In this document: positions 16,741 to 26,126 of the stretch, in pieces
Numbering within the stretch: the first letter of the stretch is position 1
Layout of the letters: the number at the start of each line of letters is the position of its first letter
Assembly: GCF_009914755.1 (NCBI RefSeq)
Contig: NC_060939.1
DNA length: 64,000 bases
Source of the DNA: the human T2T-CHM13v2.0 reference genome, Homo sapiens
Reading direction: 5' to 3' (one strand)
Program-made: the position numbers and the translations under genes
The notes under the pieces: generated by a model
Told to the model about the DNA's origin: nothing
The model's database searches: none
The model's input: the letters and a program-made list of their open reading frames with translations, nothing else

Positions 16741-17102
16741 TTAAGAAAGACAAGGAGTTTTCAGGAGAACAAATAGGAGATAGGAAAATGTGTGATAATG
16801 TTTGTCTATATATGTATGAGTGGGCCTTCTGTCTTCTTCAAGACCATAAAACTCTCCCAGAGAAGGGATTTATGGCACATTTGCTGTATGTAAGATTCAT
16901 TCTGCTGTATGCCTCTTCTGGAGTTTTACTTGCTTCCCAACAAGGAAGGTGAGTTTTCCTGCTTCCATGATAATGGAAGGCAGGCAACTCCTTTCTGGGA
17001 GTCTCAGCTCATTTCCAACAGGGAAGGCAAGTTTGAGTCTTCTCCTGCTTCTAGGATGGTAGCAGTTTTCAGCCTGGGCCCCATTCTTAGGTAAGTAGCT
17101 GA

Positions 17103-17422
<320 letters not shown>

Positions 17423-17607
17423 AGGAAATTCTTTTTAATGACTAAAAGTTAAGATTAACAGCCAGCTGGTCTTAATTTCTCCTTACCATTAGAGTGCTGA
17501 GTAATCATATGAACTGTGCAATTGTTTGTTTCTCTTAGCTTATTTTTGTTCATTTGTTTCTTTCTGTTTTTGTTTTTTTGTTTGTTTGTTTGTTTCTGCA
17601 TGGCTCT

Positions 17608-17992
17608 TGTATCAGTTCGAACCTCGAGAGTCGCCAACAAACAACACAAGGCGGTGTAGAGCAACACAGTTTTAAGGCGCACCGCGTGGGGGCAGACAGG
17701 CTGAGGCCTAAAATGGCTCAGCACCTAAGGAGGATGGGGCAGAGATTTTATAGTCTCCTGTAAACAGGAAGTGTCTCAGTCTGATGTAACTGCTACGCCG
17801 TACCCGGACAGCCTTTCTCTCGGTCTTCAGGGGGTACCTGCCTTCCAGCCAGCTAGCTTGCTTCCTGCTTCTGTTATCTTGCTGACGCATGCCGCTGGCG
17901 CAAGTGGTCTTTACTTTGGGACTGGGCCTGAGAAGGGCAGAGTTATTCACCACCCTCCACCACCCCCAGCTTCCAGGCCCAGGGTAAAGTCA
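17608..17992 (-). mobile_element. ERV LTR, family tentative (LTR21-like)
   Basis: Minus strand has TATAAAA and ends CGAACTGATACA; CpG-rich; interrupts MER4-int; no clean TSD. Confidence 0.6.
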
Positions 17993-18822
17993 GTTTCCAT
18001 CTTTTTCCCATTGGGTTTGACCAACTCTACCTGACTTGGTCAAATCCAAAGGAAAGTTCCAAATCATGGGAAACAAGGTCTCTGAATTTGCGAAATCCCT
18101 GCAGCTGAAAAAAAAAGAAACAGAAAAAAAGAAAGAGAGAGGGAGAGAGAGAAAGAAAGAACGAGAGAATGAAAGAACGAGAGAGAGAGAGAGAGAGAAG
18201 GGAAAGGGAAGGGGAAGATTTTGACTATCTGAGGAGTTTTATTTACATGACAAGGCCACCTTTTGCTAGCCAAGCCCAAACTGACAGAGCAATGGCAGCT
18301 GTCCGTGCTGTAGTTCTGTAGCTATGATTCTGCCTCTTGTTTTTTACATGGTGACAGCCTGGGTTTGGTTCCTAAGTCAAGTCCTTTCTAATTTGATATT
18401 TGTGTTACTTTCAAACTATCAGCAGTTTTTCCCAGCAAAAATATGATAATAGGAGATTTAAAAGGATTTTTTAAGAGCTCAATGGTTAAGTCAGCTTAAC
18501 TAAAAGCTAATATCTAAGATATATATACACACACACATATAAGCATATATATATACACACACACTTTTTTCTCTCCTAGGTTCTTGATTTTTGAGAAAAA
18601 GGTTTTTTTCTTCTCAATCCACTGAATTCTGTTTTGTCCATTTACTTCTGCCTGTCTCTCCTTCCTCTTACCACCCTCTGCTGCATGAAGGACATAAATA
18701 GTTCCTAACAGCCTAGGATTCCTTTAAGAAAACAGAGAAGGCGCCAGGTTTCTTTTTGGGAGAAACCTCTGTTTTTCCTTATGGAACCCCAAGAGTGTAA
18801 ACAGACAAGTTCCTCTCAGATC

Positions 18823-19293
18823 TGTAAACCAAAAGTATCTGAGACAGGTCTCAATCAGTTTAGAAGTTTATTTTGCCAAGGTTAAGGTCGAGCCTGTGAC
18901 ACAGCCTTAGGAGGTCTTGAACAACATGTGCCCAAGGTCATAGGGCTACAGCTTGGTTTTACACATTTCAGGAAGGCATAAGATATTAATCAATACATAT
19001 AAGATGTACATTGGTTCAGTCCAGATTCAGAGAGAGTAGATCGTAAATGTTTCTTATCAGACGTAGAAAGTGTTATTATCAGACTGTTCTATCGGTCTTA
19101 AGGTCTGTGTTGATGTTAGTGCTGGTCAGCGGTGCCTGAATTGCAATGGTCAGAGGGTATAATAGGGCATGTCTGACTCCTGCTTCCCATCATGGGCTGA
19201 ACTAGTTTTTCACTTTCATTTTGGAATGCCCTTGGCCAAGAGGAATGATCATTCAGTTGGGTGAGGAGCTTGGAACTTTATTTTTGGTTTACA
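18823..19293 (-). mobile_element. MER4 solo LTR nested antisense in MER4-int
   Basis: TGTAAACCAAAA...TTTTGGTTTACA termini; 4-bp TSD GATC at 18819-18822 and 19294-19297. Confidence 0.9.
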
Positions 19294-19413
19294 GATCTTC
19301 AACTGCTTGTTCTTATGTTACCTGATCTTTTTTTTTTTTTTTTTACCAAAATCGTGATTACCCTGTACAGGGGTTACTCTTGCATATTTTAAGATAATAA
19401 GTGGTGTGGTTTA

Positions 19414-21697
19414 TTTTTTTTTTTTTTAATTTATTTTTTTATTGATAATTCTTGGGTGTTTCTCACAGAGGGGGATTTGGCAGGGTCATGGGACAATAGT
19501 GGAGGGAAGGTCAGCAGATAAACAAGTGAACAAAGGTCTCTGGTTTTCCTAGGCAGAGGACCCTGCGGCCTTCCGCAGTGTTTGTGTCCCTGATTACTTG
19601 AGATTAGGGATTGGTGATGACTCTTAACGAGCATGCTGCCTTCAAGCATCTGTTTAACAAAGCACATCTTGCACCGCCCTTAATCCATTTAACCCTGAGT
19701 GGACACAGCACATGTTTCAGAGAGCACAGGGTTGGGGGTAAGGTCACAGATCAACAGGATCCCAAGGCAGAGGAATTTTTCTTAGTGCAGAACAAAATGA
19801 AAAGTCTCCCATGTCTACTTCTTTCTACACAGACACGGCAACCATCCGATTTCTCAATCTTTTCCCCACCTTTCCCGCCTTTCTATTCCACAAAGCCGCC
19901 ATTGTCATCCTGGCCCGTTCTCAATGAGCTGTTGGGCACACCTCCCAGACGGGGTGGTGGCCGGGCAGAGGGGCTCCTCACTTCCCAGTAGGGGCGGCCG
20001 GGCAGAGGCGCCCCTCACCTCCCGGACGGGGCGGCTGGCCGGGCAGGGGGGCTGACCCCCCCACCTCCCTCCCGGACGGGGCAGCTGGCCGGGCGGGGGG
20101 CTGACCCCCCCACCTCCCTCCCGGACGGGGCGGCTGGCCGGGCAGAGGGGCTCCTCACTTCCCAGTAGGGGCGGCCGGGCAGAGGCGCCCCTCACCTCCC
20201 GGACGGGGCGGCTGGCCGGGCGTGGGGGCTGACCCCCCCCTACCTCCCTCCCGGACGGGGCGGCTGGCCGGGCGGGGGGCCGACCCCCCCACCTCCCTCC
20301 CGGACGGGGCGGCTGGCCGGGCGGGGGGCTGACCCCCCCACCTCCCTCCCGGACGGGGTGCTGGCTGGGCAGAGGGGCTCCTCACTTCCCAGTAGGGGCG
20401 GCCGGGCAGAGGCGCCCCTCACCTCCCGGACGGGGCGGCTGGCCGGGCGGGGGGGCTGACCCCCCCCACCTCCCTCCCGGATGGGGCGGCTGGCCGGGCG
20501 GGGGGCTGACCCCCCCACCTCCCTCCCGGACGGGGCGGCTGGCCGGGCGGGGGGCTGACCCCCCCACCTCCCTCCCGGACGGGGCGGCTGGCCGGGCGGG
20601 GGGCTGACCCCCCCACCTCCCTCCCGGACGGCACGGCTGGCCAGGCGGGGAGCTGACCCCCCCACCTCCCTCCCGGATGGCACGGCTGGCCGGGCGGGGG
20701 GGCTGACCCCCCACCTCCCTCCCGGATGGGGCGGCTGGCCGGGCGGGGGGCTGACCCCCCCCACCTCCCTCCCGGACGGGGTGGCTGCCGGGCGGAGACG
20801 CTCCTCACTTCCCAGATGGGGTGGCTGCCGGGCGGAGAGGCTCCTCACTTCTCAGACGGGGCAGCTGCCGGGCGGAGGGGTTCCTCACTTCTCAGACGGG
20901 GTGGTTGCCAGGCAGAGGGTCTCCTCACTTCTCAGACGGGGCGGCCGGGCAGAGACGCTCCTCACCTCCCAGACGGGGTCTCGCCGGGCAGAGGTGCTCC
21001 TCACATCCCAGATGGTGCGGCGGGGCAGAGGCGCTCCCCACATCTCAGACGATGGGCGGCCGGGCAGAGACGCTCCTCACTTCCTAGATGTGATGGCGGC
21101 TGGGAAGAGGCGCTCCTCACTTCCTAGATGGGATGGCGGCCGGGTGGAGACGCTCCTCACTTTCCAGACTGGGCAGCCAGGCAGAGGGGCTCCTCACATC
21201 CCAGACGATGGGCGGCCAGGCAGAGACGCTCCTCACTTCCCAGACGGGGTGGCGGCCGGGCAGAGGCTGCAATCTCGGCACTTTGGGAGGCCAAGGCAGG
21301 CGGCTGGGAGGTGTAGGTTGTAGTGAGCCGAGATCACGCCACTGCACTCCAGCCTGGGCACCATTGAGCACTGAGTGAAGGAGACTCCGTCTGCAATCCC
21401 GGCACCTCGAGAGGCCGAGGTTGGCGGATCACTCGTGGTTAGGGGCTGGAGACCGGCCGGCCAACACAGCGAAACCCGGTCTCCACCAAAACCAGTCAGG
21501 CGTGGCGGCGCGTGCCTGCAATCGCAGGCACTCGGCAGGCTGAGGCAGGAGAATCAGGCAGGGAGGTTGCAGTGAGCCGAGATGGCAGCAGTACAGTCCA
21601 GCTTCGGCTCCGCATGAGAGGGAGACCGTGGGGAGAGGGAGAGGGAGAGGGAGAGGGAGACGGAGAGGGAGAGGGAGAGGGAGAGGGAGAGGGAGAG
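19414..21697 (-). mobile_element. Full-length SVA retrotransposon (SVA_F-like)
   Basis: Poly(A) at ~19414-19440, SINE-R ~19441-19940, GC-rich VNTR ~19940-21270, Alu-like domain ~21270-21630, (CCCTCT)n hexamer 21631-21697. Confidence 0.97.
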
Positions 21698-22268
21698 CTG
21701 CATTCCTTTTCTTAAAGTTCTTAAGTGATATACTCAAGATGGAGTACTCTGTAATGATCTGGCCCCAACTGACATTTTCCAGCTCACCTTCTGCCCCTTC
21801 TGGACATGCCCTGACCAAGTTACCTCAATGTTGTGTTCCTGATACAATATCATGTCATTATCTTCCATACTTTTGTCTCTTTGCATATGTAATTCCTTTT
21901 GCATAGAATGTGTTTCCCTTGTCAGCCTGGCTGGCTTAAGACAATTGAGATCTAGGAAATTTGCCATAACTTCCTTCGGCAGGTTTGAGGTAGTTTTCTC
22001 TTATTTTCCCATACTGGCCAATCTATAGAAATTATGATAATAATGTATTACATGTATACTATACGCTAGTCCCTCTGAGGCTAATTATTAGTCTATGTAG
22101 ATTGGCATCTCAGTAAAGAAATTGAGCTGAAGAGAGGTTAAGTGACTTCCTGAAGTCTTCATGGTTAATCCCTTTCCAGTGTCAGGTATCAAACCTAGGT
22201 CTCATGGCCCAGTGGTGCGATCTCGGCTCACCTCAACCTCCGCCTCCCTGGTTCAAGCAATTCTCCTC
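21698..22268 (-). mobile_element. 5'-transduced sequence carried by the SVA (L2, MIR and Alu fragments)
   Basis: TSD AGTGGTGTGGTTT(A) at 19400-19413 recurs at 22269-22282 rather than beside the hexamer; MER4-int resumes after it. Confidence 0.88.
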
Positions 22269-22844
22269 AGTGGTGTGGTTTAAACACTTAGAGAAATATC
22301 TTTGTAACAGTGCACCGTTAAGCACATTACATGGCCTAGTCCCATGATGTCACTCTGTTTGGAGAACTAGGATTCAGTGTGGGCTCCACCCAGAGCTCAG
22401 AGGTCCAGTTAAAAGATAGAGAGTAAATTTAAAACTACCTATCTAAACAAAATTTGTCTCCTTATCAAATCCTATGGTATTTTTCTATCATTTTATGTTT
22501 GGCTTGGTATCCCTTTTTAATCTCCTGCTAACACACCTAGACTTCGTCTGTACTTTGAGATGTAAATTTCACTCTCTGATTTTCACTTAGAGTTGTTCCT
22601 TTGGTATGCAAATTTAGAGGTATCTAGCTGACAATTGCCTAGGGAAATGACACGGATTATCAAGAAATTAGAACTCTAAAATAGGAGACTGAAAAGGGGA
22701 GTCTTATGAATCTATGAGCTTCTATCTGCATGTCTAATAAGTCCATGTATTTATGTGTCATGTATATGATGTTTCACTACCAAAAATATATAAAAGAGCT
22801 CTAATTAATTGACTTTTTTAAAAAAGCTCTTAAATACTTTATCA

Positions 22845-23143
<299 letters not shown>

Positions 23144-23330
23144 TTATCAGAAAAATAGGAACTTTAAGCCCAAATGCTTTCTCAAGTTCATGTGACTTAA
23201 GTAAATCCTTAATAAGCTGGTTTTAATAGATAAAATTAGAAATGTCTTCAGAATTCTTAACATACATTATTGTTTAGATTCGTTGGTCAAGTGGTTTCAT
23301 ATTTATCTCTCCTAAATATTATAAGGTGTC

Positions 23331-23792
<462 letters not shown>

Positions 23793-23808
23793 TTAGGTAA
23801 ACACTTGA

Positions 23809-24451
<643 letters not shown>

Positions 24452-24935
24452 GTTGTAACTTGCACCAGCCCAGGTATATAAAAGGAGTTAAAATTTGTTT
24501 TGTTCCCATATCCTTTCTTGTTCCCCAAGACCATTAGTTCCTCAAGAGAAATTACAGTCTCTTCCTTCTTTGTGATCACAGTGCCTGGCTTACAGTAGGT
24601 GCTCAATAAATGTTACAGACGCATCATGTTCTCAAGCTCTTGCTGAACCTAGACCCAGCCTCCCTTTCAAAGAAGACTGTTCTGCCAGGTACTTCACTCA
24701 GTGTCCTACTTCTTTGCTCAAGTCCCTGGGCCCTTGGACCTCCTGAATTTCCACCACTACTGCAGGGATCAGATCTTTCAATTCTCTAGTTTTCTTCCAC
24801 TGATGAAACTTTTGGTTCCAGTCTTTAAGTCTGCTAGCAAAAGACAAAACAAACATACAAACAAAAAACCAGCAATAGACAGGTTAACAGGAAAAAAAGC
24901 ATACAAATTTATTTGCATGGGAATGGGAAGCAGGG

Positions 24936-26126
<1,191 letters not shown>

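What the first reader, a model, noticed from the sequence alone, without database searches (positions are those of the whole stretch)
19400..22282. Young SVA carrying a ~570-bp 5' transduction from another locus
Seen in sequence: the 13-14 bp TSD AGTGGTGTGGTTT(A) lies next to the poly(A) (19400-19413), and its partner is at 22269-22282, about 570 bp beyond the hexamer. MER4-int reads continuously once everything between the two copies is removed, and the target GGTTT/AA fits the L1 endonuclease consensus. The extra DNA contains L2-like (~21730-22020) and MIR-like (~22110-22205) fossils. Established: L2 and MIR stopped moving long before MER4-group proviruses arrived, so they cannot have inserted here on their own, and SVA 5' transductions are a described class. 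Inference: a source SVA was transcribed from an upstream start site and mobilised its flank. There is no MAST2 exon, so this is not the SVA_F1 group. I cannot tell whether this lineage is already catalogued.
Basis: partly seen in the sequence, partly recalled or inferred. Interest (0 to 1): 0.8.

Follow-up and report, generated by a model that had tools for sequence, protein, structure and literature searches.

The report
Polymorphic SVA_F with chr5 5' transduction
This is a young human SVA retrotransposon that carried 570 bases of chromosome 5 DNA with it when it copied itself into chromosome 15; it is a well-known kind of event, and this copy is already listed in a public catalogue of human structural variants.

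Summary
Window 19414-22268 is one L1-mediated insertion on the minus strand: A14 tail, SINE-R, VNTR, Alu-like domain, (CCCTCT)n hexamer, then 570 bp of non-SVA DNA. It is bracketed by an exact 14-bp TSD. The extra DNA has exactly one other place in this genome, C5:65927853-65928422, with 2 mismatches in 570. There the sequence runs on past both ends and has no TSD or poly(A), so chr5 is the origin.

- No SVA lies at the chr5 site in this assembly. A parent is inferred only from a 16-bp candidate source TSD ending at TCTT/AAAG, a pattern found by chance at 9% of positions.
- The last ~60 bp of the transduction is an Alu fragment, followed by one untemplated G (sense strand), the known cap signature.
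- The SINE-R is identical to labelled SVA_F/F1 exemplars and 19-29 mismatches from E and D exemplars.
- The element is already catalogued as a polymorphic SVA with a transduction in Schloissnig et al. 2025, Supplementary Table 18.

This is an ordinary, known event of low interest.

The parts
19400..19413 (.). TSD copy next to the poly(A) (3' side of the minus-strand element)
   Evidence: Exact 14-mer with 2 hits in the window; 0 of 100 shuffles reached 2.
19414..19427 (-). Poly(A) tail, 14 nt, read as T14 on the + strand
   Evidence: Read directly from the sequence.
19428..19935 (-). SINE-R domain including the polyadenylation signal region
   Evidence: 19431-19935 is identical (same bit score as the self hit) to 28 other genomic copies among 40 scored of 1,495 candidates. 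It shows 0 of 505 differences to TSD-verified SVA_F (10q24.2) and SVA_F1 (9p13.1) exemplars.
19936..21265 (-). VNTR domain
   Evidence: TRF arrays: period 49 x 16.7 copies (20013-20795) and period 40 x 12.7 copies (20770-21265), plus period-37 units from 19959.
21266..21615 (-). Alu-like domain, complete
   Evidence: 98-99% identical to other SVA copies over its full length. The alignment shows 3 private substitutions, 1 private 1-bp deletion and one variant shared only with the chr12 copy.
21616..21697 (-). (CCCTCT)n hexamer array, 13.8 units, the canonical SVA 5' end
   Evidence: TRF period 6, score 129.
21698..22267 (-). 570-bp 5' transduction copied from C5:65927853-65928422
   Evidence: 568 of 570 bases identical to chr5. 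The homology begins exactly at the hexamer edge and ends at 22267. It is the only other copy in the genome.
21698..21713 (.). Inferred TSD of the missing chr5 parent SVA (CTGCATTCCTTTTCTT), followed by AAAG
   Evidence: An endonuclease-like site (at most 1 mismatch to TTTT, then AA) lies exactly 16 bp from the junction. Such a site at 7-20 bp occurs at 923 of 9,977 positions (9.3%) in the chr5 10-kb region, so this is supportive, not decisive.
22208..22267 (-). Alu fragment at the 5' end of the transduction, sense relative to the SVA RNA
   Evidence: 43 genomic hits cover only this part of the query; 99 HSPs fall here and nowhere else in the transduction. On chr5 the Alu continues to about L009 6600.
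22268..22268 (-). One untemplated base (C on +, G on the SVA sense strand) between the 5' TSD and the transduction
   Evidence: It matches neither chr5 (G on +) nor the TSD. The same signature is described for full-length SVA insertions and attributed to the m7G cap (Raiz 2012, passages read).
22269..22282 (.). TSD copy at the 5' side of the element
   Evidence: Exact 14-mer, followed by AAC, giving the target GGTTTA/AAC.

Best explanation
A full-length canonical SVA_F RNA was reverse transcribed and inserted by the L1 machinery (target-primed reverse transcription) into an old dispersed repeat on chr15, at a TTTA/AA-type site, creating a 14-bp TSD. The RNA came from a parent SVA_F lying in minus orientation at C5:65927853. 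It began about 570 nt upstream of that parent, inside the right arm of a neighbouring Alu, and so carried 570 nt of chr5 flank as a 5' transduction. The single extra G at the 5' junction suggests that the cDNA reached the capped 5' end, which would make position C5:65928422 (minus strand) the transcription start rather than a truncation point. The parent is absent from this assembly: the chr5 site is an empty allele with one copy of the inferred 16-bp source TSD. The chr15 offspring is still polymorphic in living humans. Shown: the anatomy, the TSD, the chr5 origin and direction of copying, the absence of an SVA at chr5 in this assembly, the F-type SINE-R, and the catalogue entry. Inferred: the existence and exact site of the parent, the cap origin of the G, and the start site.
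For: SVA anatomy, A-tail and exact TSD. An empty-site structure is supported by 9 of 10 host-repeat relatives being colinear across one TSD copy, 6 of them exactly. The transduced stretch is 568/570 identical to C5 and occurs only twice in the genome. The chr5 sequence extends beyond both ends without retrotransposition hallmarks. The junction with the hexamer has no filler, no poly(A) and no splice donor, and lies 16 bp from a TCTT/AAAG site. Kirby 2025 uses this same criterion, a source TSD inside the transduction, to confirm sources. An untemplated G at the 5' junction was seen in 3 de novo full-length SVA insertions and attributed to the cap. SINE-R shows 0/505 differences to TSD-verified F and F1 exemplars, against 29 and 21 mismatches to two E exemplars and 19 to a D exemplar. 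[quoted passage not shown] Missing sources are documented: in Kirby 2025, 84% of transduction-carrying SVAs were traced to a source and the rest were not.
Against: No SVA lies beside the chr5 stretch in this assembly. No mobile-element call at chr5 65927xxx/65928xxx appears in the held part of Table 18, but only 18,827 of about 35,115 rows are held. No chr5 5q12 source and no sibling carrying this transduction appear in Kirby's tables. The source-TSD signature would arise by chance at about 9% of positions. The extra base could instead be a chr5 variant or filler added at a 5' truncation. The catalogue flags the row NOT_CANONICAL=1 with no poly(A) and a 41-nt 'TSD'; that string is the element's own poly-T plus SINE-R end (window 19414-19454), so I read it as a miscall.
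Confidence: 0.85

Rival explanations
1. Template-switch chimera: L1 reverse transcriptase copied an ordinary SVA_F RNA to its 5' end and then jumped to an unrelated chr5-derived RNA. In that case no parent SVA ever sat on chr5.
For: No SVA at the chr5 site in this assembly and none in the catalogue parts I could read. Kirby 2025 names template switching as one route to transduction-like structures.
Against: The junction falls exactly at the canonical start of the hexamer, with no filler and no cap-G, and 16 bp from an endonuclease-like site as expected of a source TSD (9% by chance). The second RNA would have to be entered at an internal position with no poly(A). A parent that is simply absent from one haploid assembly is a documented situation.
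Confidence: 0.1
2. Exon trapping by splicing, as in SVA_F1: an upstream chr5 exon was spliced onto an SVA.
For: Splicing into SVAs is a recurrent mechanism (Kirby 2025).
Against: The full hexamer and the whole Alu-like domain are retained, whereas the known splice events enter within the Alu-like region. On the sense strand, the chr5 bases after the junction are TC, not a GT donor (read).
Confidence: 0.02
3. Reverse direction or non-retrotranspositional duplication: the chr5 stretch derives from chr15, or the two copies arose by segmental duplication or gene conversion.
For: Only the near-identity of the two copies.
Against: The chr15 copy lies inside the TSD/poly(A) bracket together with the SVA. 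The chr5 copy is embedded in continuous DNA, with its Alu complete beyond the breakpoint and no TSD or poly(A).
Confidence: 0.01

Closest known systems
Polymorphic SVA insertions with partnered 5' transductions (Schloissnig et al. 2025, PMC12350158; Kirby et al. 2025, PMC12593883; Chu et al. 2023, PMC10681720)
   Same: Full-length SVA with unique non-SVA DNA between the 5' TSD and the hexamer, traceable to one origin locus. Alu sequence within the 5' transduction is a reported ~4x enrichment. This very insertion is a row in Schloissnig Supplementary Table 18.
   Different: At 570 bp it is longer than the typical 5' transduction (mean 172 bp, median 124 bp in Kirby 2025), though within the reported range. 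It is a singleton in this assembly, and its source SVA is not in this assembly.
SVA_F1 (MAST2 exon 1 - SVA_F fusion lineage)
   Same: The SINE-R is identical to a TSD-verified F1 exemplar, and foreign sequence sits at the 5' end.
   Different: F1 replaces the hexamer and the 5' part of the Alu-like domain by splicing. Here both are intact, and the extra DNA is contiguous genomic flank, not a spliced exon.
[quoted passage not shown]
   Same: The origin locus is identifiable but no SVA sits beside it in the reference assemblies consulted.
   Different: Only one assembly and partial catalogue tables could be checked here, so 'missing' means missing from this assembly.
L1-mediated chimeric retrocopies made by template switching
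   Same: Two unrelated sequences are fused within a single TSD-bracketed insertion.
   Different: The junction carries a plausible source TSD and endonuclease site, and no poly(A) or small-RNA partner is involved.

Membership tests
SVA (SINE-VNTR-Alu) non-LTR retrotransposon | (CCCTCT)n hexamer array at the 5' end | tested here: met
   13.8 units at 21616-21697.
SVA (SINE-VNTR-Alu) non-LTR retrotransposon | Alu-like domain made of antisense Alu fragments | tested here: met
   21266-21615 is 98-99% identical to other SVAs. Two segments are complementary to a sense Alu fragment.
SVA (SINE-VNTR-Alu) non-LTR retrotransposon | VNTR of about 36-42-bp and 49-51-bp units (unit sizes as given in Raiz 2012) | tested here: met
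   TRF periods 37, 40 and 49 across 19959-21267.
SVA (SINE-VNTR-Alu) non-LTR retrotransposon | SINE-R domain ending in a poly(A) signal and tail | tested here: met
   505 bp identical to 28 other copies; A14 tail.
L1-mediated (TPRT) insertion | TSD, poly(A) and an endonuclease-type target site | tested here: met
   14-bp exact TSD, T14 run, target GGTTTA/AAC. The host repeat is continuous across one TSD copy in 9 of 10 relatives.
SVA_F subfamily | SINE-R sequence of F type rather than E or D | tested here: met
   0/505 and 4/505 mismatches to two TSD-verified F exemplars and 0/505 to a TSD-verified F1. Against this, 29/500 and 21/500 (+1 gap) to two TSD-verified E exemplars, and 19/500 (+4 gaps) to a D exemplar located by one TSD copy. 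No consensus library was available; the labels come from Kirby 2025 Table S8.
SVA_F1 | MAST2 exon 1 spliced into the Alu-like domain, with loss of the hexamer | tested here: not met
   The hexamer and the complete Alu-like domain are present. The MAST2 sequence itself was not searched for.
SVA 5' transduction | Non-SVA DNA between the 5' TSD and the SVA 5' end that maps to one other locus, which continues beyond it | tested here: met
SVA 5' transduction | Source SVA directly downstream of the origin locus | tested here: not met
   No SVA lies beside C5:65927853 in this assembly. Other haplotypes could not be tested, and the published source catalogue (Table 20) is not held.
SVA 5' transduction | Source element's TSD retained inside the transduced sequence | tested here: inconclusive
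   A candidate 16-bp TSD ends at TCTT/AAAG. Without the filled allele its second copy cannot be seen, and the chance expectation is 9.3%.
Human polymorphic mobile-element insertion | Presence/absence variation among humans | not testable with these tools
   Taken from the literature only: the element is listed as a DEL relative to CHM13 in Schloissnig 2025 Table 18. No allele frequency was seen. Ape orthologues were not available.

The most novel reading that the evidence does not exclude
The parent SVA_F at C5:65927853 may no longer exist in the human population, or only at very low frequency. The chr15 copy would then be the only record of an extinct or 'stealth' source element, preserving its insertion site, its TSD and its upstream start site inside an Alu. 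In addition, the transduced sense-Alu 5' end is complementary to two segments of the element's own antisense Alu-like domain (39 nt at 85% and 29 nt at 86%). That could fold the 5' end of this lineage's RNA back on itself and change its mobility.
Probability: 0.15. Interest if true: 0.3.

Novelty: already known. Interest (0 to 1): 0.15.

Why it matters
It matters little beyond curation. The element is one of 231 reference SVAs that the 1,019-genome long-read study calls as deletions relative to CHM13, and 5' transduction is a routine SVA behaviour.

Three small points could be useful:
- Its catalogue row carries miscalled hallmarks and a 'non-canonical' flag, although by hand it is a textbook TPRT event.
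- This assembly holds the offspring but not the parent, a concrete case of source and offspring not co-segregating.
- It is a full-length, barely diverged, polymorphic SVA_F about 27 kb from the MFGE8 start (hub annotation). It could be considered in eQTL or association work at that locus. I found no paper linking the two.

Tried and rejected
- Sibling search: the unique part 21698-22200 has only the chr15 and chr5 places in this genome.
- 3' offspring of this element: the search with 19000-19413 returned only old-repeat hits at 94% identity or less, besides the self hit (40 of 1,668 candidates scored).
- Schloissnig 2025 supplement: the coordinate search found the chr15 row but no chr5 row. 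The file is cut, so Table 20 (SVA source catalogue) and about half of Table 18 are not held. The source may be listed there.
- Kirby 2025 supplements, all 0 hits: TSD and transduction motifs in both orientations (the motifs lay beyond the 400-character cell cut, so one search used a motif nearer the 5' end); cytobands 5q12 and 15q25 (the 5q13 and 15q26 terms hit only three unrelated chr15 rows); rough chr5 hg38 coordinates; rough chr15 hg38 coordinates. The rough hg38 coordinates rest on gene positions recalled from memory.
- Chu 2023 supplement: only 7,245 characters are held, no hit.
- Damert 2009 (PMC2775593) and Hancks & Kazazian 2010 (PMC2945828) are not held. Whether the 2009 reference-genome screen listed this element is unknown.
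- Subfamily shortcut via a chr10 copy suspected to be F1: it is a canonical SVA. This was replaced by the labelled-exemplar test. Four labelled loci could not be fully verified by paired TSDs and are not counted as verified: L029 and L033 had 0 TSD hits, L031 and L032 had 1 each.
- L2/MIR labels: no support, but the test is weak.
- MFGE8 plus SVA literature: 2 papers hold the terms, neither about this element judging by title and abstract start.
- Cap-G literature search was uninformative; Raiz 2012 supplied the passages.
- Age: 2 differences in 570 bp is too few to date. One of the two is probably a change on the chr5 side, judged from my recollection of the usual Alu base at that position.
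Full report
**What is there**

Reading window 19000-22700 with Tandem Repeats Finder shows a complete SVA on the minus strand. From its 3' end to its 5' end it has:
- a 14-nt A-tail (T14 at 19414-19427);
- SINE-R (about 19428-19935);
- a VNTR with 37-, 40- and 49-bp units (about 19959-21267);
- the Alu-like domain (21266-21615);
- 13.8 hexamer units (21616-21697).

Beyond the hexamer lie a further 570 bp of non-SVA DNA (21698-22267) and one extra base (22268). The whole unit is bracketed by AGTGGTGTGGTTTA at 19400-19413 and 22269-22282. These are the only two matches in the window even when one mismatch is allowed, and 0 of 100 shuffles gave two. The insertion is 2,855 bp without a TSD copy.

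**Empty-site test**

I searched the genome with each flank separately. The right flank belongs to a dispersed repeat (231 candidates, 73-84% identity) whose alignments begin within the TSD. I fetched ten relatives and aligned both flanks to them.
- In six (L012, L013, L014, L015, L020, L021) the left-flank alignment ends at 19413 and the right-flank alignment places the second TSD copy on exactly the same subject bases.
- Three (L016, L017, L019) are colinear to within 0-5 bp.
- One (L018) had no left-flank hit.

The host repeat is therefore interrupted by a single insertion with a duplicated target. The name 'MER4-int' could not be checked because no repeat library was available. The target reads GGTTTA/AAC, an L1-endonuclease-type site.

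**Origin of the extra DNA**

A whole-genome search with 21698-22268 found one other full-length place, C5:65927853-65928422. The other 43 of 45 matches cover only query positions 509-570 and are Alu copies. Repeating the search with the unique part alone (21698-22200) gave 2 candidates, both scored: chr15 itself and chr5. There are therefore no siblings in this assembly.

The base-by-base alignment shows 568 of 570 identical. Homology starts exactly at the hexamer edge and ends at 22267. On chr5 the sequence continues on both sides: unique DNA to the left, and to the right an Alu that runs on for about 180 bp past the breakpoint. There is no TSD and no poly(A). Chr5 is therefore the origin and chr15 the copy.

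**The parent is not in this assembly**

BLAST of window 17000-25000 against 10 kb of chr5 found no SVA beside the stretch; the only similarities are Alus. The chr5 site looks like an empty allele. The first 16 bases of the transduced stretch, CTGCATTCCTTTTCTT, are followed by AAAG. A minus-strand SVA inserted there by L1 would have this as its TSD, and the right-hand copy would be transduced, as observed.

I measured how often such a site (at most one mismatch to TTTT, then AA) lies 7-20 bp from an arbitrary position. It does so at 923 of 9,977 positions (9.3%) in the chr5 region and 4,296 of 63,977 (6.7%) in the window. The signature supports a parent element roughly ten-fold over a random junction, but it is not proof. 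Kirby et al. [quoted passage not shown]

**The 5' end**

The last ~60 bp of the transduction (22208-22267) are an Alu fragment in sense orientation relative to the SVA RNA. Base 22268 is C on the plus strand, which is G on the sense strand. It matches neither chr5 nor the TSD.

Raiz et al. [quoted passage not shown] They attribute it to reverse transcription of the m7G cap, and note guanosines at the 5' end of about a third of pre-existing SVAs (passages). I therefore infer that the source RNA started at C5:65928422 on the minus strand, inside the Alu. A filler base at a truncation point, or a chr5 variant, cannot be excluded. Alu sequence in SVA 5' transductions is itself reported as about four-fold enriched (Kirby 2025, section read).

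Splicing is excluded. The hexamer and Alu-like domain are intact, and the chr5 bases after the junction on the sense strand are TC, not GT.

**Subfamily and age**

The 505-bp SINE-R is identical (same bit score as the self hit) to 28 other copies, and one mismatch from 11 more, among 40 scored of 1,495 candidates.

For labels I took the source elements of Kirby 2025 Table S8, located them in this assembly by their published TSDs or by position, fetched them and compared them.

| Exemplar (label from Table S8) | How located | SINE-R difference from this element |
|---|---|---|
| F, 10q24.2 | both TSD copies | 0/505 |
| F, 3p12.3 | both TSD copies | 4/505 |
| F1, 9p13.1 | both TSD copies | 0/505 |
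| E, 20p13 | both TSD copies | 29/500 |
| E, Xp21.2 | both TSD copies | 21/500 plus one gap |
| D, 10q23.1 | one TSD copy directly 5' of the element | 19/500 plus four gaps |

Four further F/F1-labelled loci, matched by position only, differ by 0-1 of 505. They were not verified by paired TSDs.

With its full hexamer and Alu-like domain, the element is a canonical SVA_F, not F1. The Alu-like domain carries three private substitutions, one private 1-bp deletion, and one G-to-C variant shared only with a canonical copy on chr12. That chr12 copy has its own TSD and no transduction. With only 2 differences in 570 bp between the paralogues, the event is too recent to date usefully. This fits the element still being polymorphic.

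**Already catalogued**

Supplementary Table 18 of Schloissnig et al. [quoted passage not shown] Position 86695414 is window 19414. The main text explains that reference elements absent from some genomes are called as deletions relative to CHM13, and 231 of them are SVAs (passages). So the insertion is a known human polymorphism with a recognised transduction.

The row's TSD_SEQ (41 nt) is in fact the element's poly-T plus the end of SINE-R, and its poly(A) field is empty. I read these, and the non-canonical flag, as automatic miscalls, since the hallmarks are clear by eye.

The paper's SVA source catalogue (Table 20) and about half of Table 18 are not in the held copy (18,827 of about 35,115 rows). 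Whether the chr5 source is listed remains open. No chr5 row was found in the held part, none in Kirby's tables, and none in the small held supplement of Chu 2023. Damert 2009 is not held.

**How common the class is**

- 218 of 406 partnered SVA transductions are 5' in Schloissnig 2025.
- There are 1,389 5' events among 7,554 polymorphic SVA insertions in Chu 2023.

At 570 bp this one is on the long side but within the reported range.

**Chr5 context**

Pfam searches of the genome place an ADAMTS-type gene on the minus strand of C5, with its propeptide exon at 66,292,590-66,292,877 and its C-terminal PLAC exon at 65,971,963-65,972,061. The source site is about 44 kb downstream of that last coding exon, outside the coding span and on the same strand. 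That the gene is ADAMTS6 is my recollection, not a tool result.

**Verdict**

The event is an ordinary, already catalogued SVA_F 5' transduction whose parent is absent from this assembly. Interest is low.

Noticed in passing
window 22210-22248 versus 21306-21344 and 21562-21590: The sense Alu fragment at the 5' end of the transduction is complementary to two segments of the SVA's own antisense Alu-like domain (39 nt at 85% and 29 nt at 86%). The RNA of this lineage could fold its 5' end back onto the Alu-like domain.
   Followed up: partly
window about 21660-21665 (hexamer array); L022 about 1483-1488: There is a single CCGTCT unit (sense strand) inside the otherwise CCCTCT/CTCTCC array, three units from its 3' end. 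The chr12 copy has the same unit at the same relative place. Kirby 2025 mentions this variant as possibly cap-derived.
   Followed up: partly
Schloissnig 2025 Supplementary Table 18, row chr15 86695414 (window 19414-19454): The catalogue's TSD_SEQ for this element is 41 nt of its own poly-T and SINE-R end, POLYA is NA, and the row is flagged non-canonical. By hand the element has a 14-bp TSD and an A14 tail.
   Followed up: yes
window 19026-19294: A different, abundant dispersed repeat (1,668 candidate places, 75-83% identity) lies just left of the host repeat. A T-run at about 19326-19345 lies between it and the insertion site.
   Followed up: no
G000 C5:65,971,963-66,292,877 (minus strand): An ADAMTS-type gene (propeptide and PLAC Pfam hits) ends about 44 kb upstream, in gene orientation, of the chr5 source site. 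The source site is outside its coding span.
   Followed up: partly
L028 (G000 C23:28924000-28927600): In the Xp21.2 SVA_E exemplar, the SINE-R match ends about 550 bp inside the TSD on the 3' side. This suggests a 3' transduction or other extra 3' sequence in that element.
   Followed up: no
L009 5353-5641: A second, full antisense Alu with a T-run lies about 210 bp to the left of the inferred chr5 insertion site.
   Followed up: no
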